Part shown: positions 1 to 6,450 of the stretch, one piece after another
Layout of the letters: each line of letters opens with the position of its first letter
How positions within the stretch are numbered: position 1 is the first letter of the stretch
Source of the DNA: a virus
Direction: 5' to 3' (one strand)
DNA: 6,450 bases
IMG/VR virus record: IMGVR_UViG_3300011982_000013
Span: 1-6,450 of that record
Translations under genes and position numbers: made by a program
Notes under the pieces: model-generated
What the model saw: only the letters and a program-made list of their open reading frames with translations
Told to the model about the DNA's origin: nothing
The model's database searches: none

Positions 1-97
1 GGCGGCCTCCTCGTCAAAGAGAGAGGGAAGGAGCGTCTGGTGAACGTAGCGACTCCAGAGTCTTCTATCTACGTCGTCATTCACAACGAGGCGAGAG
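1..97. repeat. Terminal redundancy: 1..97 is identical to 6354..6450, consistent with a circular replicon of 6353 bp written with overlap
   Basis: Exact 97-nt match read directly from the sequence (ggcggcctcctcgtcaaagagagagggaagg...gaggcgagag at both ends). The offset between copies is 6353. Confidence 0.9.
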
Positions 98-2213: not shown

Positions 2214-3596
2214 TTAACAGAACTTCCTTTTGTAATCGTTTAACTTCTTCGTTTTTACGCTGTCTTGTAACAGCAGAGAGGCTTCATTATTTGACCTCAC
2301 AACGAAAGTAGCACATTCTTCCGAAACTTCCAAATCATTGCACGAATTAAGGCAAGATAGCTCATAAGCGACAGACTCAAGTCCTTCAAAATCAGCGTAA
2401 TAACGTTTAAGGCGGAAGCTAAAGATTTTAGTGGCTAGTAACTGAAGGAGATCGTAGTACTCCATAGGGCTAATCCCAAGAGCAATGCAACTAACATAAG
2501 CACTATACGACGAACGAGCATCTTGGTAGGTCCATCCGATAAACCCAGAACGACTATACTCAAAACGATCGCGAAGATTATCAGCGTGAAGCCGAATAGA
2601 AAGTGTATAATCTCGATGTTTATCCAAAACTCTGATAGGGAATGGTATCTCATTGAATTTCAGTAATTTATCACCTAGGCCTCTTTCTCTTGCGTAGTCA
2701 TATGCGTAACGTATGACAGACAATGGGCGTACATCATTTGCGAGGCCAAAGCCTCGAGGGAGTGGGAGCGCTCGACGGAGTAGGTAAGAGGGGATAGCTT
2801 GCTCGCTAAGCTGAAGAGTTCGAGGGTCTTTGACGATTTGCGTAAAAACTCCTTGGATGAGAGTGCGATGCACAAAGCTCTTAATGTCACCAACATACAG
2901 CGAAAGCGGAAGGTTGGAATGCCAGACTTTTGGCCGACATACGCGTAAAGCTTCTCGAGGGAGAGCAGAGACAACACCATGAGAGGCAATATAACTTGAG
3001 AGATAGTTTGCAACTCCTTGAGTGTAAGAGGGGCGGACATCTGAACGACCAAATTTCCAACAGTCAGCCGAAAGCCTCCGTAGCTCGTCGAATTCTCGCT
3101 GGGGGAGCGCCTTGTAAAATAAAGCGATATGGTAATGTGCTCGGTGAGTGAACGAACCGTATTCCCCACAGGTGTAGTAGTAGAGATTGTCGGTGTACTT
3201 GATTTTCCTCCGAAGAGAGATACGCAAACGTTTGTAGTAATCCTGAACATCCTTATAATAGAGGTGTGTACAGCGATCACCATCAGCTTGAGCAGTCCGA
3301 GCGTTAGAGACAAGCGAAAGGCCGTAATCCAAAGGGCGACCAAGGATAGGAGGAACGCCAGGGCGAGTGCTATAGCTATAACCGTCATCATCATTATACT
3401 CATATAGAGGGGCGTTATCATTGCTGTAGGTTAGGGTGATAAACAAGCACTGATACCCCTCCTTACGGAGGGCAGAGTCGAAAGCTTGTATTCTTGAAGA
3501 ACGGGACCGTAGGGCATTAAGCCTGCACACGGGGCACGTTCCACACGAAACAACGTTTCCGTCCGCGAACCGAAGGGGGGATAAGCAGTACCTCAT
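2214..3596 (-). CDS. VP4: Rolling-circle replication initiation protein (Microviridae VP4 / gpA-like HUH endonuclease), 460 aa
   Basis: It carries RCR motif I (LFITLTY), motif II HUH (RAHYHIALF) and motif III with paired Tyr (VANYLSSYIAS, Y-x3-Y as in phiX A Y-VAK-Y). The N-terminal C-x13-CGTCPVCRL Cys cluster is typical of microvirus Rep. The gene is tightly linked to VP1. Confidence 0.9.
   Translation of the reverse strand: MRYCLSPLRFADGNVVSCGTCPVCRLNALRSRSSRIQAFDSALRKEGYQCLFITLTYSNDNAPLYEYNDDDGYSYSTRPGVPPILGRPLDYGLSLVSNARTAQADGDRCTHLYYKDVQDYYKRLRISLRRKIKYTDNLYYYTCGEYGSFTHRAHYHIALFYKALPQREFDELRRLSADCWKFGRSDVRPSYTQGVANYLSSYIASHGVVSALPREALRVCRPKVWHSNLPLSLYVGDIKSFVHRTLIQGVFTQIVKDPRTLQLSEQAIPSYLLRRALPLPRGFGLANDVRPLSVIRYAYDYARERGLGDKLLKFNEIPFPIRVLDKHRDYTLSIRLHADNLRDRFEYSRSGFIGWTYQDARSSYSAYVSCIALGISPMEYYDLLQLLATKIFSFRLKRYYADFEGLESVAYELSCLNSCNDLEVSEECATFVVRSNNEASLLLQDSVKTKKLNDYKRKFC
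2223..2230 (-). promoter_or_regulatory. Shine-Dalgarno-like AAAGGAAG, 10 nt upstream of the VP1 ATG
   Basis: The reverse complement of cttccttt is AAAGGAAG. The identical 8-mer precedes VP2. Confidence 0.5.
2435..2653 (-). CDS. Candidate embedded ORF (72 aa, two predicted TM helices) in the +1 frame inside the Rep C-terminal region. Speculative
   Basis: The translation MRYHSLSEFWINIEIIHFLFGFTLIIFAIVLSIVVLGLSDGPTKMLVRRIVLMLVALLLGLALWSTTISFSY is holin-like (about 70 aa, 2 TM). The same +1 frame is also open for 248 codons upstream (2675..3421). There is no SD, and alternate-frame hydrophobic ORFs are a common artefact. Confidence 0.15.
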   Translation of the reverse strand: MRYHSLSEFWINIEIIHFLFGFTLIIFAIVLSIVVLGLSDGPTKMLVRRIVLMLVALLLGLALWSTTISFSY

Positions 3597-3601
3597 CGCA
3601 A

Positions 3602-3964
3602 CTATTTGCCGTAGTTTTTGCTATACGCAACTACGTATACGATGTCGTGAAAGCGATTGGAGAGATGTCCGCTAACGGAGCGGCGGTTTGGATAGGCTAT
3701 AATGAAGCCTAAGCCGTATTTACCATTATACGTCTCTATGTACTTGTCATCATACTTAACCGAGATGTAGCCTTTGCGGCGAGCGTAGTGGCTGATATAT
3801 AGATAAGAGAGATTTACGAGGTCTTGAATGAACGAGTTGTCAGACTCATCATTGAGCTCGAAAGGGTGGCAAGCTCTGTTTAGACGCAGGTTATTCACTT
3901 GGTCGAGAGCGCGATAGCTTATGCGAGCGAAGTCTAAGACTTGCTTTACGGTCATTGTTCCCAT
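3602..3964 (-). CDS. ORF120: hypothetical Tyr-rich protein, paralog of ORF106 (true start may be Met4, MTVKQVLDF...)
   Basis: It is a same-strand ORF between ORF106 and Rep, with GAAAGG 10 nt upstream. The N-terminus MTVKQVLDFARISYRALDQVN aligns with ORF106 MTIREIFEHLQLPMSVLYDIN. Further shared blocks are F..L..L.YL and R.KGY[FI], plus a Tyr-rich C-terminus. Confidence 0.6.
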   Translation of the reverse strand: MGTMTVKQVLDFARISYRALDQVNNLRLNRACHPFELNDESDNSFIQDLVNLSYLYISHYARRKGYISVKYDDKYIETYNGKYGLGFIIAYPNRRSVSGHLSNRFHDIVYVVAYSKNYGK

Positions 3965-3966
3965 AA

Positions 3967-4287
3967 CTACATAACCTTTCTATACACCTTTACGGTGTGA
4001 TAGCTATTTGACTTCTTGAATAATTCGTAGACATTTGCTTCGTGATAATCTACAGAGGCGCTATCAGAAGAGCCACTCAAAATTATCGGATCTCGATGCT
4101 TCCTGAAGTAACCCTTAACTCTAAGTTCACGAGAACGAACAAAGCCGAGGTACTCGAGATGAGCGAGAAAAAAGTACTTGCACTCATCGTCAGGAGACTG
4201 AGATTGAAAGTAACTTCCATTACGATTGATGTCGTATAACACCGACATTGGGAGCTGGAGATGTTCAAAAATTTCTCTAATAGTCAT
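3967..4287 (-). CDS. ORF106: hypothetical Tyr-rich protein, first copy of the tandem paralog pair
   Basis: It is a 106-aa ORF on the coding strand and the first gene after the long noncoding region. It shows clear sequence similarity to ORF120 (see above). No SD is recognisable. Confidence 0.55.
   Translation of the reverse strand: MTIREIFEHLQLPMSVLYDINRNGSYFQSQSPDDECKYFFLAHLEYLGFVRSRELRVKGYFRKHRDPIILSGSSDSASVDYHEANVYELFKKSNSYHTVKVYRKVM
3975..3980 (-). promoter_or_regulatory. SD-like GAAAGG, 10 nt upstream of the ORF120 ATG
   Basis: Reverse complement of cctttc. Confidence 0.35.
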
Positions 4288-4425
4288 TGTTGCGAAGGCG
4301 AGAGGGGATGTTCATCTCTCACAATACAAAGGTACGACAAATTCCCGAAACTACCAAACATTTACAAAGATTTACCTTTGGTGTACTCCTGGGATGCACC
4401 GCAGGCTAGGATAGATTGACGAGGG

Positions 4426-4436
4426 GAAAGTGAGTG
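4426..4436. repeat. Direct repeat gaaagtgagtg, copy 1. It overlaps a 7-bp hairpin at 4427..4445 (aaagtga / gtgtg / tcacttt) that is followed by TTT
   Basis: Exact 11-mer repeated at 4512..4522. The flanks are also similar (gacgagggGAAAGTGAGTG vs gacaGAAAGTGAGTG). Confidence 0.6.
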
Positions 4437-4511
4437 TGTCACTTTTCCGTAATATATCAAGAACCGGGAGCGCAGAGACCTATTGCGCCGTTTTACCGCA
4501 AAGAACCGACA

Positions 4512-4522
4512 GAAAGTGAGTG
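4512..4522. repeat. Direct repeat gaaagtgagtg, copy 2. Another small hairpin is possible here (gaaag ... gtgcac ... ctttc)
   Basis: Exact match to 4426..4436, 86 nt downstream. Confidence 0.6.
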
Positions 4523-4544
4523 CACCCCTTTCTAGGTGTAAGGT

Positions 4545-4605
4545 GGGTTGTTGTTAAAATATGTTATTATACGTTAAGTTTTATTAATCATACCTTAGTT
4601 TTGCG
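4545..4605. promoter_or_regulatory. AT-rich tract within the intergenic region. The coding (minus) strand carries a perfect TATAAT (4571..4566) and an ATTAATAA octamer (4588..4581) shared with the phiX174-type origin core
   Basis: The plus strand reads ttgttgttaaaatatgttattatacgttaagttttattaatcataccttag. No good -35 partner was found, and the match to the phiX ori (gATATTAATAAcac vs tgATTAATAAaac) is partial. Confidence 0.3.
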
Positions 4606-4610
4606 GGGCG

Positions 4611-4740
4611 CCCGGATACGGCACTACGTTGCACTTGCCTACGCTAGGGCGCTCGTACCACACGCGCGCGCGTGGGAGGCGCGCGCACGCGCGCGATCCT
4701 CGCTTTAGCTGGGGCACTGCAGACGTAGCACCTATCCGGG
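4611..4740. repeat. Large imperfect inverted repeat (cruciform) with outer arms cccggata...tatccggg and a GC-only alternating purine-pyrimidine core at 4661..4695
   Basis: 4611..4618 cccggata pairs with 4733..4740 tatccggg, and partial arm matches continue inward. The core cacgcgcgcgcgtg (a perfect 14-nt palindrome) plus gcgcgcgcacgcgcgcg can form a 10-bp G/C stem (4665..4674 with 4686..4695). The core is Z-DNA-prone. Confidence 0.6.
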
Positions 4741-4756
4741 CTTAGCTCCCTCGGTT

Positions 4757-4776
4757 GCTCGTGCTTACGCACGAGC
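4757..4776. repeat. Perfect 8-bp hairpin gctcgtgc-ttac-gcacgagc
   Basis: Read directly from the sequence. It is a tetraloop hairpin in the ORF-free region. Confidence 0.6.
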
Positions 4777-4905
4777 CGTCGTTATGAACGAGTACTCGAC
4801 CAAAGGTCTCCTACTCGTACTGGAGCTACCTCGTTGTTTGTAAGCGGTAACAGCATTATCACCAAACATAGGTTAATTTTATATATGGTGAAGTCGTTAG
4901 CTATA

Positions 4906-5040
4906 GCTGTAACTGCACCCCCCTTATCGACCAACTGCGAAGCTATTCCTTTTGTGCTGACGTGCAATTTCGTACCTCATTGCACTAACGCACAAAAGGG
5001 CTTCTGATGCAGTTGGGCGATAAGGAGATGCAGTTACAGC
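4906..5040. repeat. Long interrupted hairpin of about 135 nt with about 49 paired bp. Candidate complementary-strand (single-strand) origin or packaging element
   Basis: Paired segments are 4906..4917 with 5029..5040 (12 bp, perfect), 4922..4929 with 5017..5024, 4931..4938 with 5008..5015, 4939..4943 with 4999..5003, 4948..4956 with 4990..4998, and 4962..4968 with 4979..4985. The loop is ttcgtacctc. Each arm also contains internal direct repeats (gatgcagtt twice on the right arm, aactgc twice on the left arm). Confidence 0.6.
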
Positions 5041-5064
5041 GGTGGCTAGTGTACGCCATCACAT

Positions 5065-5128
5065 ATAACAAAAGCACCCACGCGCCTCAAACGCTGTGGT
5101 GCAACGGTTGGGCGCGCGGGTGTTTTTT
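5065..5128. terminator. Candidate bidirectional intrinsic-terminator-like hairpin about 45 nt downstream of the VP2 stop
   Basis: Stem 5075..5086 cacccacgcgcc pairs with 5111..5122 ggcgcgcgggtg (11 of 12 bp), followed by TTTTTT (5123..5128). On the coding (minus) strand the stem is followed by CTTTTGTTAT (5074..5065). The 24-nt loop is long for a canonical terminator. Confidence 0.35.
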
Positions 5129-5165
5129 CGCTCCGCGGGGGGCTCCTTGGATCTGCAGTTACATG

Positions 5166-6170
5166 CTACTTGGCGTGGCTCATGAAGTTTGCCATTCCAT
5201 TCAGGAGGATGCTAGTACCTTGTAGCATTCTATCGACAGGAGCAAACTTTATCTGCGTTTCGTAGTAGCGAGACTGAGTATCCTTTGACTTTATTTCTGA
5301 CTTGATTTTCTCCTCGACGAAGCGCTGAGTTTTGCGAAGGATGACAGCATTTTCCGCTATTACGTCTTGCTGTAAAGTCTCCGTTAGAGCTTTCTTCATA
5401 AGCAACTCCTTTTGAGCGTAAGAGAGCTGAGTTTGAGCGCGGATATACGCCATAGTGACAAAGAGCGACTTTATCTTAGCTTGAATCTCCAACACCTTTG
5501 CAGGGGCAGTGTGCTTGAGCTCGAATTCAGCTAGGAGAGTTTGCGCCTGAATATAGTCAGCTTGATTAGCTGCAGCGAGGGCTTCAGATTGCAACTTCTT
5601 CAAATCAGCCTCCTCGAACTTGCGCTGTCTAGCGACATTATAAAGAGTGCTATCCGTTTGGGCGCGAACGTTTGCTAGTTCAGCTTCGTTCTTATCTTTT
5701 CGAGTTTCATTATCCGTCTCTATGCCTTGCGTTTCAGCTTGTGTTTTAGCTATATCGGCTTCGACTTTCTGTTTCTGAAGGTCTATTAATTGCTGTTGCT
5801 GTGCCATAGCGGCGATTTGCGCGCCGCCAGAGGCAACGCCTTGACCAAGGGTGCCTAGAGCGTTTTCAGCTCGGGGTGCTCCTTCTCCAGAGGCGGAGGT
5901 CACCGCCTGGGTGATACCAGGCGTAATATTCGACAGGGCGAGTGCAGGGTTAATACCTGCTTCCTCGAGACGCTTGCGCTGATTAGCTGGAGTGTTATAT
6001 TCATTGCTCCTATTCCATTGCTCGAGGTTGAAGCGGTTTTGCGCTTCCATGAGTTTCTGTTGGGTAAGAGCGTTGAACTTATTAGTGGAGGCTTGCCCGA
6101 TAGCGGACAAACCTCCACCAATAAGGCTGCTACCTCCAGCGATTAGCGCGGCTAATACAGCTGGAGCCAT
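5166..6170 (-). CDS. VP2: Minor capsid / DNA pilot protein (Microviridae VP2, H-like), 334 aa
   Basis: It has a Gly-rich hydrophobic N-terminus (AAIAGGSSLIGGGLSAIG) and the conserved ...QRKRLEEAGINPALA... motif (gokushovirus VP2 consensus K-[DE]-AG-[LI]-NP). The rest is a Q/A-rich coiled-coil-like region. AAAGGAAG lies 7 nt upstream. Confidence 0.8.
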   Translation of the reverse strand: MAPAVLAALIAGGSSLIGGGLSAIGQASTNKFNALTQQKLMEAQNRFNLEQWNRSNEYNTPANQRKRLEEAGINPALALSNITPGITQAVTSASGEGAPRAENALGTLGQGVASGGAQIAAMAQQQQLIDLQKQKVEADIAKTQAETQGIETDNETRKDKNEAELANVRAQTDSTLYNVARQRKFEEADLKKLQSEALAAANQADYIQAQTLLAEFELKHTAPAKVLEIQAKIKSLFVTMAYIRAQTQLSYAQKELLMKKALTETLQQDVIAENAVILRKTQRFVEEKIKSEIKSKDTQSRYYETQIKFAPVDRMLQGTSILLNGMANFMSHAK

Positions 6171-6172
6171 AG

Positions 6173-6304
6173 CTATTCTTCCTTTTCCATTTCACGTGGA
6201 ACGTCCTCGGGCTTCTCCTTGGGCTTGGGGACAAGACCGAGGATAGAGATAATGAGAGGCACAACGTCTACGATAAACTTGAGCCACTTGATTACCTTGT
6301 TCAT
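6173..6304 (-). CDS. ORF44: small single-TM protein (MNKVIKWLKFIVDVVPLIISILGLVPKPKEKPEDVPREMEKEE), candidate membrane or lysis-related peptide
   Basis: Manual translation of the 165-nt gap between the ORF133 stop (6336) and the VP2 start (6170). It has a hydrophobic core of about 19 residues followed by a K/E/P-rich charged tail. It is on the same strand as the other genes. Its stop overlaps the VP2 RBS and is 2 nt before the VP2 ATG. It is below the 60-aa cutoff of the ORF track. No SD. Confidence 0.3.
   Translation of the reverse strand: MNKVIKWLKFIVDVVPLIISILGLVPKPKEKPEDVPREMEKEE
6178..6185 (-). promoter_or_regulatory. Shine-Dalgarno-like AAAGGAAG, 7 nt upstream of the VP2 ATG (inside the last codons of ORF44)
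   Basis: Reverse complement of cttccttt. The same 8-mer precedes VP1. Confidence 0.5.
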
Positions 6305-6335
6305 AATTGTAAGTATTAAGAGTTATACATACCAG

Positions 6336-6353
6336 CTACTTGTCGCTGGGTGG
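6336..6353 (-). CDS. 3' end of wrap-around ORF133 (codons PPSDK plus TAG stop)
   Basis: This continues the frame of the 1..384 minus ORF across the circular junction (position 6354 corresponds to position 1). The stop is cta at 6336..6338. Confidence 0.45.
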   Translation of the reverse strand, partial: PPSDK

Positions 6354-6450
6354 GGCGGCCTCCTCGTCAAAGAGAGAGGGAAGGAGCGTCTGGTGAACGT
6401 AGCGACTCCAGAGTCTTCTATCTACGTCGTCATTCACAACGAGGCGAGAG
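6354..6450. repeat. Duplicate of 1..97 (circular overlap)
   Basis: Exact identity to the window start. Confidence 0.9.

What the first reader, a model, noticed from the sequence alone, without database searches (positions are those of the whole stretch)
4288..5165. An 880-nt ORF-free but highly structured intergenic region in an otherwise maximally compact ssDNA genome
About 14% of the genome is noncoding in a single block. In the viral (minus) sense every frame is stop-rich, and the only ORF of 60 aa or more there (61 aa, 4782..4967) is dismissed as implausible under noticed_but_rejected. Instead the block holds at least five distinct structural elements: a terminator-like hairpin, a 135-nt long hairpin, a perfect 8-bp tetraloop hairpin, a 130-nt GC cruciform with Z-DNA-prone CG tracts, and an AT-rich tract with direct repeats. 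Microviruses usually have almost no intergenic space. A block like this could be the complementary-strand origin plus promoter region, a structured ncRNA, or a captured non-autonomous element (hairpin-ended, IS200/IS605-style).
Basis: seen in the sequence. Interest (0 to 1): 0.7.

Follow-up and report, generated by a model that had tools for sequence, protein, structure and literature searches.

The report
Microvirus non-coding origin and control region
The 878-base gene-free, strongly folded block is real. It is best read as this small single-stranded-DNA phage's terminator, replication-origin and promoter region, an enlarged version of a block its relatives also carry, and not as a hidden gene or a captured mobile element.

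Summary
The window is a circular 6,353-nt microvirus from a human oral metagenome, with all genes on the window minus strand. The gap 4288-5165 lies between the pilot gene and the operon that contains Rep.

No ORF is conserved, and the viral strand folds at -186 kcal/mol (z = -16), the most structured stretch of the genome.

The nearest relative (capsid 75% identical) has a 993-nt gap at the same place. Three blocks there are better conserved (80-85%) than coding DNA (about 70%), and the long hairpins are kept through compensatory changes.

In viral sense the gap reads:
- a terminator-like hairpin;
- a 159-190-nt hairpin, two small hairpins and a 141-nt CG/TG hairpin;
- a small hairpin, a pyrimidine tract and CTTGATATATTACG, which carries the CTTG|ATA nick core of phiX174 and pC194 and occurs once per genome, viral strand only, in 36 of 109 related loci;
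- the only full Bacteroides-type promoter in the window.

Relatives at 40-48% capsid identity share this layout in gaps of 240-680 nt.

Best reading: a control region like the intergenic region of filamentous phages. The promoter and viral-strand origin are well supported. The long hairpins as complementary-strand origin are inferred. No copy of the block was found elsewhere, so capture is not supported.

The parts
5127..5165 (-). Segment just after the pilot-gene stop. It holds copy 1 of the repeated motif GTAACTGCA (5154-5162) and CCCCCCGCGGAGCG, and is about 80% identical to L018.
5070..5127 (-). E1: 24-pair GC-rich hairpin flanked by A6 and CTTTTGTT, about 40 nt after the pilot stop. Terminator-like in both directions (T6 on the window plus strand).
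   Evidence: DNA fold -21.3 kcal/mol, z about -6. 23 pairs kept in L018, with one G.U to U.G swap. Equivalent hairpin plus T-run after the pilot gene in relatives.
4879..5068 (-). E2: long imperfect hairpin (core 4894-5052, -48.9 kcal/mol, 55 pairs; 69 pairs when extended). It carries GTAACTGCA on the 5' arm (5029-5037) and its complement on the 3' arm (4909-4917).
   Evidence: In L018 it is a 231-nt hairpin (-80.7 kcal/mol) with a different, AT-rich apex. Of 45 mapped basal pairs, 27 are the same, 10 are changed on both sides and kept, 7 are broken. Long hairpins of 95-211 nt sit at the same place in relatives.
4786..4820 (-). E4b: small hairpin (arms 4788-4801 and 4805-4818). AGTAGGAGA and CGAGTACT are conserved in L018.
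4757..4776 (-). E4a: perfect 8-bp stem with a tetraloop (GCTCGTGC TTAC GCACGAGC on the plus strand). The sequence is not conserved in L018, which has other small hairpins here.
4602..4742 (-). E5: 141-nt GC-rich hairpin whose apex is an alternating CG/TG stem.
   Evidence: Alignment fold with L018: 44 pairs, 11 changed on both sides and kept, several G.U pairs conserved on the viral strand. z -5.6 on the viral strand. Similar CG/TG hairpins occur in the non-coding DNA of the L030-type prophages and in L102.
4541..4601 (.). AT-rich tract. It is only 56% identical to L018 and has no direct repeats.
4496..4533 (-). E7a: small hairpin AGAAAG..CTTTCT (4511-4533) followed by GTCGGTTCTTTGCGG. Identical in L018 and nearly so in the distant L030-type prophages.
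4448..4489 (-). E7b: probable viral-strand origin. It consists of hairpin GGCGCA..TGCGCC (4470-4489), the spacer TCCCGGTT and CTTGATATATTACG (4448-4461). The predicted Rep nick lies between viral G and A, at plus-strand positions 4458/4457.
   Evidence: phiX174 annotated origin CAACTTG|ATATTAAT. pC194 origin TCTTGATAATAA. GCTCCN5CTTGATAT is unique in the window, 0 expected. CTTG-N0-3-TATAT(A/T)ACG occurs once per locus, viral strand only, in 36/109 loci, always after a covarying hairpin. Same arrangement in OR148992, L020 and L120-L123.
4424..4448 (-). E7c: hairpin GGAAAAGTGA-CACAC-TCACTTTCC directly after the nick motif. Kept in L018 with a compensatory change; an equivalent GAAAACCGAAG..TTCGGTTTTC occurs in L122.
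4327..4358 (-). Bacteroides-type promoter TTTG-N20-TACCTTTG for the 106aa-120aa-Rep-capsid genes.
   Evidence: Only match in the window on either strand, 0.10 expected. Conserved in L018. Consensus from PMC4747536. Homologous promoters at the end of the gap in relatives.
4288..4326 (-). Inferred 5' leader with a small conserved hairpin (4300-4320), ending at the ATG of the 106-aa gene (4285-4287).
   Evidence: block 4288-4395 is 84% identical to L018

Best explanation
The block is the phage's non-coding control region. In layout it is the counterpart of the intergenic region of filamentous ssDNA phages.

Read in the viral (window minus) sense:
1. Hairpin E1 ends transcription of the capsid-to-pilot genes.
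2. The long imperfect hairpins E2 and E5, with the small E4a/b, fold in the packaged single strand. They most likely form the double-stranded landmark at which host enzymes prime the complementary strand (a single-strand origin).
3. E7 is the viral-strand origin. The phage's two-tyrosine HUH Rep recognises a small hairpin plus a pyrimidine tract and nicks at CTTG|ATAT, both to start and to end rolling-circle synthesis.
4. A Bacteroidota-type promoter and short leader start transcription of the 106aa-120aa-Rep-capsid genes.

Shown by sequence analysis and comparison with relatives: no conserved ORF in the gap, the folds and their conservation, and the origin and promoter motifs with their conservation. 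Inferred: what each element does. Confidence by part, in my judgement: promoter about 0.8, terminator about 0.7, nick site about 0.6, long hairpins as complementary-strand origin about 0.4. The window/L018 clade carries an enlarged version (878-993 nt) of a block that is 240-690 nt long in relatives.
For: Gene map and Rep type. Rep carries FITLTY, HYHIALF and YLSSY.

No gene.

Fold.

The nearest relative L018/L019 (capsid 75% identical) has a 993-nt gap at the same place. Blocks E1, E7 and E8 are 80-85% identical against 69-74% for coding DNA.

Compensatory changes: E5 11 of 44 pairs, E2 10 of 45, E1 one swap.

The viral strand folds better than the complement in 8 of 10 long hairpins with DNA parameters and 10 of 10 with RNA parameters. 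G.T pairs number 31 against 13.

Promoter.

Origin motif.

Same order of elements (terminator hairpin, long hairpin, origin block, promoter) in Dulem virus 259 (z -10.4), OR148992, L020, L120, L121 and L123.

The general model of separate leading- and lagging-strand origins in rolling-circle replicons is from PMC5714925. The filamentous-phage intergenic region is described in PMC10334589. A hairpin expected for complementary-strand synthesis in microviruses is discussed in PMC9865509.
Against: Nothing here is experimental.

Covariation for E2 and E5 rests on two sequences.

Neither long hairpin contains a recognisable promoter-like or known sso motif.

The gut relatives of the L027 type have only short hairpins (-0.09 to -0.13 kcal/nt against -0.21 here), so long hairpins are not a universal requirement.

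The excess of G.T pairs on the viral strand could come from C-to-T deamination bias in ssDNA rather than from selection.

The nick motif varies between clades (CTTGATAT, CTTGTTATC, CTTGGTATTA, CTTGTCTTATAT), so the exact cut site is uncertain.

Some relatives (L031, L090) carry two CTTG-type candidates.

The T-run after E1 is interrupted (CTTTTGTT).

The sequence cannot tell a DNA-level role from a sense-RNA role.
Confidence: 0.6

Rival explanations
1. E2 and/or E5 work as sense-strand structured RNA. They would be a long structured 3' UTR of the pilot transcript, or a separate non-coding RNA, acting for example on mRNA stability or regulation.
For: With RNA parameters the sense strand folds better than the antisense in 10 of 10 long hairpins. 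E5 keeps several G.U pairs in both genomes. The U-tract after E1 is imperfect, so read-through is plausible.
Against: No Rfam family matches at E<=1. No conserved promoter lies upstream of E2 or E5; the only conserved -7 box is the one at 4327-4334. The hairpins sit between a terminator-like hairpin and the promoter. E2 is almost purely Watson-Crick (54 pairs to 1 G.T), which fits DNA better than RNA.
Confidence: 0.15
2. Part of the block is an attachment site for integration by host Xer-type recombinases, possibly presented by a folded ssDNA hairpin as in CTX phage.
For: Related Bacteroidales microviruses are proviruses thought to use dif-like sites (PMC3091885). The L030/L069-type contigs are prophages whose att core (TATTTATCATA[A/C]TACAAATTATAGGAAAA) lies in the same non-coding region, about 70 nt after the promoter. 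In L018 the best E. coli dif match (17/28) falls just upstream of the promoter. By my hand alignment it matches both arm consensuses 10/11 if a 7-nt spacer is allowed.
Against: The window has no match to the dif consensus at 3 mismatches or fewer. The homologous window site matches the arms poorly. No integrase is encoded, and no integrated copy of this clade was found. E2 and E5 stems are GC-rich and not dif-like.
Confidence: 0.1
3. The block, or E2/E5 within it, is a captured hairpin-ended non-autonomous mobile element (MITE or IS200/IS605-style).
For: L018 has an apical 35-bp perfect AT-rich palindrome inside E2 that the window lacks, so hairpin modules do come and go. GTAACTGCA direct repeats flank E1. 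CG/TG hairpins appear sporadically in three lineages.
Against: blastn finds no match in phages or plasmids. Exact-pattern scans for E2, E5 and E7 in viral, metagenome and genome collections found only unrelated chance matches or L030-type prophages. The block is syntenic and homologous in L018, and its layout is shared at 40% capsid identity. The flanking repeat is conserved in L018 and OR148992 as a gap-specific motif, which does not fit a target-site duplication.
Confidence: 0.04
4. A protein-coding gene is hidden here, through a frameshift, an unusual code or a very small gene.
For: Relatives encode a lysozyme or peptidase between the gap and Rep, and the window has no recognised lysis gene. 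A 26-aa ORF (4319-4399, minus strand) is conserved in length in L018.
Against: Every frame has at least 6 TAA. There is no ORF homology between window and L018 apart from pieces inside highly conserved DNA. No family hits. In relatives the lysozyme lies downstream of the promoter, where the window has its 106- and 120-aa genes. The 26-aa ORF overlaps the promoter.
Confidence: 0.02

Closest known systems
Intergenic region of Ff filamentous phages (M13/f1/fd)
   Same: Both are a single non-coding, hairpin-rich block between the last morphogenesis gene and the replication gene of a circular ssDNA phage. Both combine transcription termination, hairpins that act in the single strand, the Rep nick site and the start of the replication-gene transcript (PMC10334589; details of hairpins A-E are from my own knowledge). 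The Rep here matches Pfam REP_ORF2-G2P, which by its name covers phage gene-II-type proteins.
   Different: No sequence similarity was seen or expected, and the virion type differs (icosahedral microvirus). A packaging-signal role is not expected, because microvirus packaging is coupled to Rep-driven synthesis. The nick core is CTTG|ATA-like rather than the Ff sequence, and the promoter is of Bacteroidota type.
Viral-strand origin of phiX174 (in gene A) and the double-strand origin of pC194-type rolling-circle plasmids
   Same: The core TCTTGATAT matches phiX174 CAACTTG|ATATTAAT (annotated origin at 4306) and pC194 TCTTGATAATAA. Rep is an HUH enzyme with two tyrosines.
   Different: Here the site lies in non-coding DNA preceded by a small hairpin, not inside the Rep gene. 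The flanking sequence differs, and cleavage is not shown.
Complementary-strand origins: phiX174 primosome assembly hairpin, G4 primase origin, Ff minus origin, ssoA/ssoU of rolling-circle plasmids
   Same: All are imperfect hairpins in non-coding DNA of the single-stranded form. The plasmid and Ff examples are roughly 130-250 nt long (my own knowledge), as E2 and E5 are. They are used by host enzymes only (PMC5714925; PMC9865509).
   Different: None of the family-specific motifs was found (no promoter-like boxes in the stems). There are two long hairpins rather than one module. Priming in Bacteroidota has not been studied, to my knowledge.
Non-coding region with dif-like att sites of Bacteroidales microvirus proviruses (Alpavirinae BMV1-7)
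   Same: Same gene order (Rep, capsid, small ORFs, pilot, non-coding DNA) and same host phylum (PMC3091885). The L030-type prophages show att in the same region.
   Different: No convincing dif-like site and no integrated copy for the window clade.

Membership tests
Viral-strand (double-strand) origin of phiX174/pC194-type rolling-circle replicons | Nick-site core CTTG|ATA on the displaced (viral) strand | tested here: met
   Viral-strand TCTTGATATATTACG at 4448-4461. phiX174 CAACTTG|ATAT. pC194 TCTTGATAATAA. GCTCCN5CTTGATAT is unique in the window, 0 expected.
Viral-strand (double-strand) origin of phiX174/pC194-type rolling-circle replicons | Cognate HUH Rep with two catalytic tyrosines | tested here: met
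   FITLTY, HYHIALF and YLSSY in the 460-aa Rep. PF23343 and phrog_942 hits.
Viral-strand (double-strand) origin of phiX174/pC194-type rolling-circle replicons | One site per genome, strand-specific, conserved among relatives | tested here: met
   CTTG-N0-3-TATAT(A/T)ACG occurs once each in 36/109 loci, 0 on the other strand, 0.3 expected. Variants occur in OR148992, L020 and L120-L123.
Viral-strand (double-strand) origin of phiX174/pC194-type rolling-circle replicons | Site-specific cleavage and joining by Rep | not testable with these tools
   Needs a nicking assay with purified Rep.
Single-strand (complementary-strand) origin (sso, Ff minus origin, G4 ori-c, phiX PAS) | Extensive imperfect hairpin(s) in non-coding DNA of the ssDNA form, beyond chance | tested here: met
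   E2 -48.9 kcal/mol (z -9), E5 -46.8 (z -5.6). Whole gap z -16.
Single-strand (complementary-strand) origin (sso, Ff minus origin, G4 ori-c, phiX PAS) | Structure rather than sequence is conserved | tested here: met
   E5 has 11 of 44 pairs with double changes and E2 has 10 of 45. Only two sequences.
Single-strand (complementary-strand) origin (sso, Ff minus origin, G4 ori-c, phiX PAS) | Works in one orientation only (viral strand) | tested here: inconclusive
   The viral strand is more stable in 8/10 (DNA) or 10/10 (RNA parameters) hairpins, with G.T pairs 31 against 13. For E2 of the window the complement is slightly better. Deamination bias could mimic the signal.
Single-strand (complementary-strand) origin (sso, Ff minus origin, G4 ori-c, phiX PAS) | Family motifs (promoter-like boxes in the stem; ssoA CS-6 TAGCGT in the loop) | tested here: not met
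   No sigma-70-like site in 4200-5300. No conserved TAnnTTTG in E2 or E5. TAGCGT occurs once in E5 (plus strand 4641-4646, read), inside the stem, and is not kept in L018.
Single-strand (complementary-strand) origin (sso, Ff minus origin, G4 ori-c, phiX PAS) | Primer synthesis starts there on ssDNA | not testable with these tools
   Needs an ssDNA-to-duplex conversion assay or primer mapping.
Ff-type intergenic control region | One non-coding block holding terminator, ssDNA hairpins, Rep nick site and the replication-gene promoter, in that order | tested here: met
   Anatomy. The same order occurs in relatives.
Ff-type intergenic control region | Packaging-signal hairpin recognised by assembly proteins | not testable with these tools
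   No assay available. Not expected for a microvirus (my own knowledge).
Intrinsic terminator | GC-rich hairpin just after a stop codon | tested here: met
   24-pair hairpin starting about 40 nt after the pilot stop.
Intrinsic terminator | Uninterrupted T/U run after the stem | tested here: inconclusive
   The viral sense has CTTTTGTT and the opposite sense has T6. The consensus scan finds one site, about what shuffles give.
Bacteroides-type promoter | -33 TTTG and -7 TAnnTTTG with about 19-21 nt between, upstream of a gene | tested here: met
   TTTG-N20-TACCTTTG at 4327-4358 (minus strand) is the only match, 0.10 expected. The -7 consensus is from PMC4747536. Conserved in L018 and relatives.
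Any described RNA family (Rfam 15), tRNA, tmRNA | Covariance-model match | tested here: not met
   No match at E<=1. No tRNA or tmRNA.
MITE / IS200-IS605-type non-autonomous element | Further copies elsewhere, or presence/absence polymorphism | tested here: not met
   The block is syntenic in L018.
dif-like Xer attachment site (Alpavirinae proviruses, CTX phage) | 28-bp site matching the dif consensus, or the att core of related prophages | tested here: not met
   0 matches at 3 mismatches or fewer. The best matches are 17-18 of 28-29.
Protein-coding gene | Open frame conserved in relatives | tested here: not met

The most novel reading that the evidence does not exclude
The long viral-strand hairpins (E2, and the alternating CG/TG hairpin E5, which recurs in three microvirus lineages) could be a so far undescribed class of single-strand-specific elements in Bacteroidota microviruses. 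One possibility is a new type of complementary-strand origin recognised by Bacteroidota primase or RNA polymerase. The repeated gap-specific motif TAACTGC would then be part of the recognition site. The other possibility is a structured sense RNA with a regulatory or anti-defence role.
Probability: 0.15. Interest if true: 0.6.

Novelty: new variant of a known kind. Interest (0 to 1): 0.4.

Why it matters
Replication origins have been mapped in phiX174-type microviruses. To my knowledge they have not been mapped in the Bacteroidota-associated microviruses that are abundant in the human mouth and gut.

This window, with its relatives, yields three things:
- a concrete, testable candidate for the viral-strand origin: a small hairpin, a pyrimidine tract and CTTG..TATATACG, conserved in 36 of 109 related loci;
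- a candidate for the early promoter;
- a set of long hairpins as candidates for the complementary-strand origin.

It also shows that these phages concentrate their control signals in one block, as filamentous phages do. That is useful for annotation, because gene callers place spurious small ORFs there. It is also useful for building replicons or vectors for Prevotella and Bacteroides.

Tried and rejected
- Rfam at E<=1 and ARAGORN: nothing.
- blastn of the gap against GenBank phages and PLSDB plasmids: no match.
- Whole window against phages: only 70-84-nt pieces of the pilot gene.
- Pilot-protein and 106-aa-protein searches in IMG/VR: only distant relatives or none.
- Exact or degenerate pattern scans:
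  - E7 pattern in IMG/VR, JGI metagenomes and GTDB genomes: only L030-type prophages plus chance matches with no microvirus genes.
  - E5 and E2 patterns in IMG/VR: six unrelated matches.
- dif consensus and prophage att core: no convincing site in the window.
- Sigma-70 promoter scan: none.
- Antisense RNA ending at the T6 side of E1: two -7-like boxes on the window plus strand are not conserved in L018, so this was dropped.
- MAFFT/RNAalifold on E2 misaligned the arms because of the L018 apical insertion. I replaced it with separate arm alignments.
- nhmmer profiles of four blocks against all loci: only weak hits. These were nonetheless the lead to the CTTG..TATATACG motif.
- The upstream GCTCC shared with phiX174 is not kept in OR148992, so I do not count it as part of the site.
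- Protein-family scans of eight gap ORFs: nothing.
Full report
WHAT THE WINDOW IS

The window is a complete microvirus genome. All long ORFs lie on the minus strand:
- capsid, 389-2212 (Pfam Phage_F, phrog_514);
- Rep, 2214-3596 (PF23343, phrog_942);
- two small proteins with no family, 3602-3964 and 3967-4287;
- pilot protein, 5166-6170 (phrog_8689).

Rep carries FITLTY, HYHIALF and YLSSY, the three motifs of a two-tyrosine HUH initiator.

The same sequence is an ENA contig from a human oral metagenome (SRR2037085). That contig has a 127-nt terminal overlap and the window ends repeat 97 nt, so the circle is 6,353 nt. The packaged strand of a microvirus has the sense of its mRNAs (established knowledge), so the viral strand is the window minus strand.

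THE OBSERVATION

The gap 4288-5165 is 878 nt, or 13.8% of the circle. Viral-sense frames contain 9, 18 and 17 stops, with at least 6 TAA in each. The eight gap ORFs of 40-72 aa hit no Pfam or PHROG family.

The viral strand folds at -186.1 kcal/mol against -123.3 +/- 3.9 for dinucleotide shuffles (z -16.2). The complement has z -11.2. In a tiling of 878-nt windows round the genome the gap is the extreme: -188.7 against a median of -111.6.

The individual elements also beat shuffles (mononucleotide shuffles): E1 z -6, E2 z -9, E5 z -5.6.

The AT-rich tract is real but has no direct repeats.

The Logan assembly of the same run agrees base for base and breaks only at 4709-4741, on the flank of the GC hairpin. 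This is not an assembly foldback.

THE NEAREST RELATIVE

A search with the capsid found one close relative (P0002, 75% identity). All other hits were at 49% or below. Its contigs come from two other samples, L018 and L019, and are identical in the gap region. They have the same gene order and a 993-nt gene-free gap in the same place.

Coding DNA of the two phages is 69-74% identical. Within the gap:
- the stretch from the pilot stop through E1 is 80% identical;
- E7 is 85%;
- the promoter/leader block is 84%;
- E5 is 64%;
- E2 is 42%, because L018 has a different and longer apex.

By comparison the 106-aa protein is only 40% identical at the amino-acid level. No ORF is shared apart from 26-29-aa pieces inside the conserved DNA blocks.

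STRUCTURE IS CONSERVED, NOT SEQUENCE

- E5: an alignment fold gives 44 pairs. Eleven differ on both sides and still pair, and several G.U pairs are kept on the viral strand.
- E1: 23 pairs, with one G.U to U.G swap.
- E2: MAFFT misaligned the arms. Aligning the 5' and 3' arms separately gives 45 mapped basal pairs. Of these, 27 are unchanged, 10 are changed on both sides and kept, 1 is changed on one side and kept, and 7 are broken, mostly at the outer end. Some of the 10 reflect matched indels on both arms.
- In L018, E2 is a 231-nt hairpin of -80.7 kcal/mol.

Across ten long hairpins from this clade and its relatives, the viral strand folds better than the complement in 8 of 10 with DNA parameters and 10 of 10 with RNA parameters. 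G.T pairs number 31 against 13. This points to the viral-sense single strand as the folding species. However, C-to-T deamination bias in ssDNA could produce part of the signal.

THE PROMOTER

The Bacteroides consensus (-33 TTTG, -7 TAnnTTTG; PMC4747536) matches once in the whole window on either strand. The match is at 4327-4358 on the minus strand, about 40 nt upstream of the 106-aa gene, with 0.10 matches expected by chance.

It is the only -7 box in the gap that is conserved in L018. Clearly related promoters close the gap in OR148992, L020, L120, L121 and L123.

Together with capsid relatives found in Prevotella genomes (P0074), this places the host in Bacteroidota.

THE VIRAL-STRAND ORIGIN

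On the viral strand, 4448-4489 reads GGCGCAATAGGTCTCTGCGCC-TCCCGGTT-CTTGATATATTACG, followed by the hairpin GGAAAAGTGACACACTCACTTTCC.

The annotated origin of phiX174 is CAACTTG|ATATTAAT. The pC194 origin used for rolling-circle ssDNA production is TTCTTATCTTGATAATAAGGG (PMC7072734).

The motif CTTG-N0-3-TATAT(A/T)ACG occurs exactly once, on the coding strand only, in 36 of 109 related loci, with 0 on the other strand and 0.3 expected. Each time it follows a small hairpin and a pyrimidine-rich spacer. The hairpin stems covary (GAAAGCGAT/ATCGCTTTC, GAAAGCTAT/ATAGCTTTC, GGTAATTAC/GTAATTAC, GGCGCA/TGCGC).

Closer relatives show the same arrangement with small variations:
- OR148992: GGCGCA..TGCGCC-CTAAATA-CTTGATATC;
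- L121 and L123: CTTGTTATC;
- L020 and L120: CTTGGTATTA;
- L122: CAGGTCTCTGCGCTC-GTATTTTT-CTTGGTGTTATATACG plus a GAAAA..TTTTC hairpin.

Small gokushovirus-like contigs place ACTTGATAT in the loop of a perfect hairpin.

This is strong comparative evidence for a cis-acting site, and the Rep nick site is the obvious candidate. The exact cut position is inferred from phiX174.

THE SAME LAYOUT IN RELATIVES

Gaps after the pilot gene are usual in this lineage:

| Genome | Gap (nt) |
|---|---|
| Dulem virus 259 | 683 |
| bajarodmic virus 617 | 598 |
| OR148992 | 532 |
| L121 | 530 |
| L123 | 525 |
| L120 | 495 |
| L020 | 483 |
| L122 | 363 |
| Dulem virus 235 | 242 |

Most are strongly folded (Dulem 259 z -10.4; others). 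In most of them the order of elements is a terminator hairpin, one long hairpin of 95-211 nt, the origin block, then the promoter.

In a cruder survey of 43 circular relatives, most 6.2-6.5-kb genomes have 700-1,200 nt without an ATG-ORF of 75 aa or more. I did not verify that all of that DNA is non-coding. The gut L027-type genomes fold much less there (-0.09 to -0.13 kcal/nt against -0.21 in the window and L018) and have only short hairpins.

The window/L018 clade therefore carries an enlarged edition of a lineage-typical block. The extra length comes mainly from E5, E4a/b and a bigger E2.

WHAT THE LONG HAIRPINS DO

This part is inference. A rolling-circle replicon needs a separate site where host enzymes start the complementary strand on the single-stranded form (PMC5714925). 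A hairpin for this purpose is expected in every microvirus (PMC9865509).

E2 and E5 have the size and form of such sites in Ff phages and rolling-circle plasmids (my own knowledge). They lie next to the viral-strand origin, they fold best on the viral strand, and their structure is conserved.

Against this: no known recognition motif is present, and not all relatives have long hairpins.

Two further observations may bear on recognition:
- GTAACTGCA occurs three times in the window, all in the gap, with 0.05 expected. TAACTGC is gap-specific in the window, in L018 and, with 3 of its 4 copies, in OR148992.
- Alternating CG/TG hairpins like the apex of E5 recur in the L030-type prophages and in L102.

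RIVALS

- A sense-strand RNA role cannot be excluded from sequence. It lacks a promoter, and there is no Rfam match.
- An attachment-site role has precedent. L030 and L069 are different phages integrated at the same host locus, with a dif-like att core in this same non-coding region (PMC3091885). But the window has no convincing site.
- Capture of a mobile element is contradicted by synteny and by the absence of any other copy.
- A hidden gene is contradicted.

VERDICT

The best explanation is a composite control region comprising a terminator, single-strand hairpins, the viral-strand origin and a promoter. In layout it resembles the intergenic region of filamentous phages (PMC10334589), and its nick core resembles that of phiX174 and pC194.

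It is a new variant of a known kind. The kind is ordinary for ssDNA replicons. The size, the 140-230-nt hairpins and the conserved origin motif of Bacteroidota microviruses do not appear in the papers I could search. Interest is moderate.

Noticed in passing
window 2675-3421 (minus strand), inside the Rep gene in another frame: A 248-aa ORF overprinted on Rep stays open in the relative L019 over 245 codons (50% amino-acid identity, no stop), although the DNA is only about 70% identical. It may be a real overlapping gene. It has no PHROG hit and only a sub-threshold Pfam hit (20 bits against a cut-off of 26.4).
   Followed up: partly
window 4909-4917 (+), 5029-5037 (-), 5154-5162 (-): GTAACTGCA occurs three times, all in the gap (0.05 expected). 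TAACTGC is found only in the gap in the window and in L018 (two viral-strand copies each, about 125 nt apart). In OR148992 three of the four copies are in the gap, about 98 nt apart. Dulem virus 259 has TTACCTGCTG twice at the corresponding places. This looks iteron-like; its role is unknown.
   Followed up: partly
L018 4486-4716, compared with window 4894-5052: In L018 the apex of the long hairpin is a perfect AT-rich palindrome of about 35 bp that the window lacks. L018 also has two small hairpins with the same loop (GAACGCAGTGA) but complementary-changed stems (GGTC/GACC and GGAC/GTCC). Hairpin modules are evidently gained and remodelled in this region.
   Followed up: no
L030 7040-7130; L106, L109, L110; L102 3740-3800; window 4655-4700: Hairpins with an alternating CG 5' arm and a TG-rich 3' arm, and so many G.T wobbles on the viral strand only, recur in the non-coding DNA of three separate microvirus lineages.
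   Followed up: partly
L030 about 990-7394; L069, L067, L066, L071, L029: These IMG/VR contigs are microvirus prophages. Different phages (about 69% identical in the capsid gene) sit between the same host flanks (92-99% identical). The direct-repeat att core TATTTATCATA(A/C)TACAAATTATAGGAAAA is visible in L069 and lies in the phage's non-coding region, about 70 nt after its promoter.
   Followed up: partly
window 3602-4287 (minus strand): Relatives encode a lysozyme or peptidase M15 between the gap and Rep. The window and L018 instead have two small proteins (106 and 120 aa) with no Pfam or PHROG match. No lysis gene was recognised in the window.
   Followed up: no
window 4709-4741: The Logan assembly of the same sequencing run breaks the genome into two contigs exactly on the flank of the GC hairpin, leaving 31 nt uncovered. 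Such hairpins probably fragment many microvirus assemblies.
   Followed up: no
window 1-97 and 6354-6450: The window ends are a 97-nt direct repeat left by assembly of a circle. The real genome is 6,353 nt.
   Followed up: yes
window 4319-4399 (minus strand): A 26-codon ORF is conserved in length and is 77% identical in L018. It overlaps the promoter and lies in DNA that is 84% identical, so it is probably not a gene.
   Followed up: partly
window about 1-590 and 6150-6450: The region around the small genes between capsid and pilot is the second most structured part of the genome (-139 to -146 kcal/mol per 878 nt against a median of -112) and has the highest GC content.
   Followed up: no
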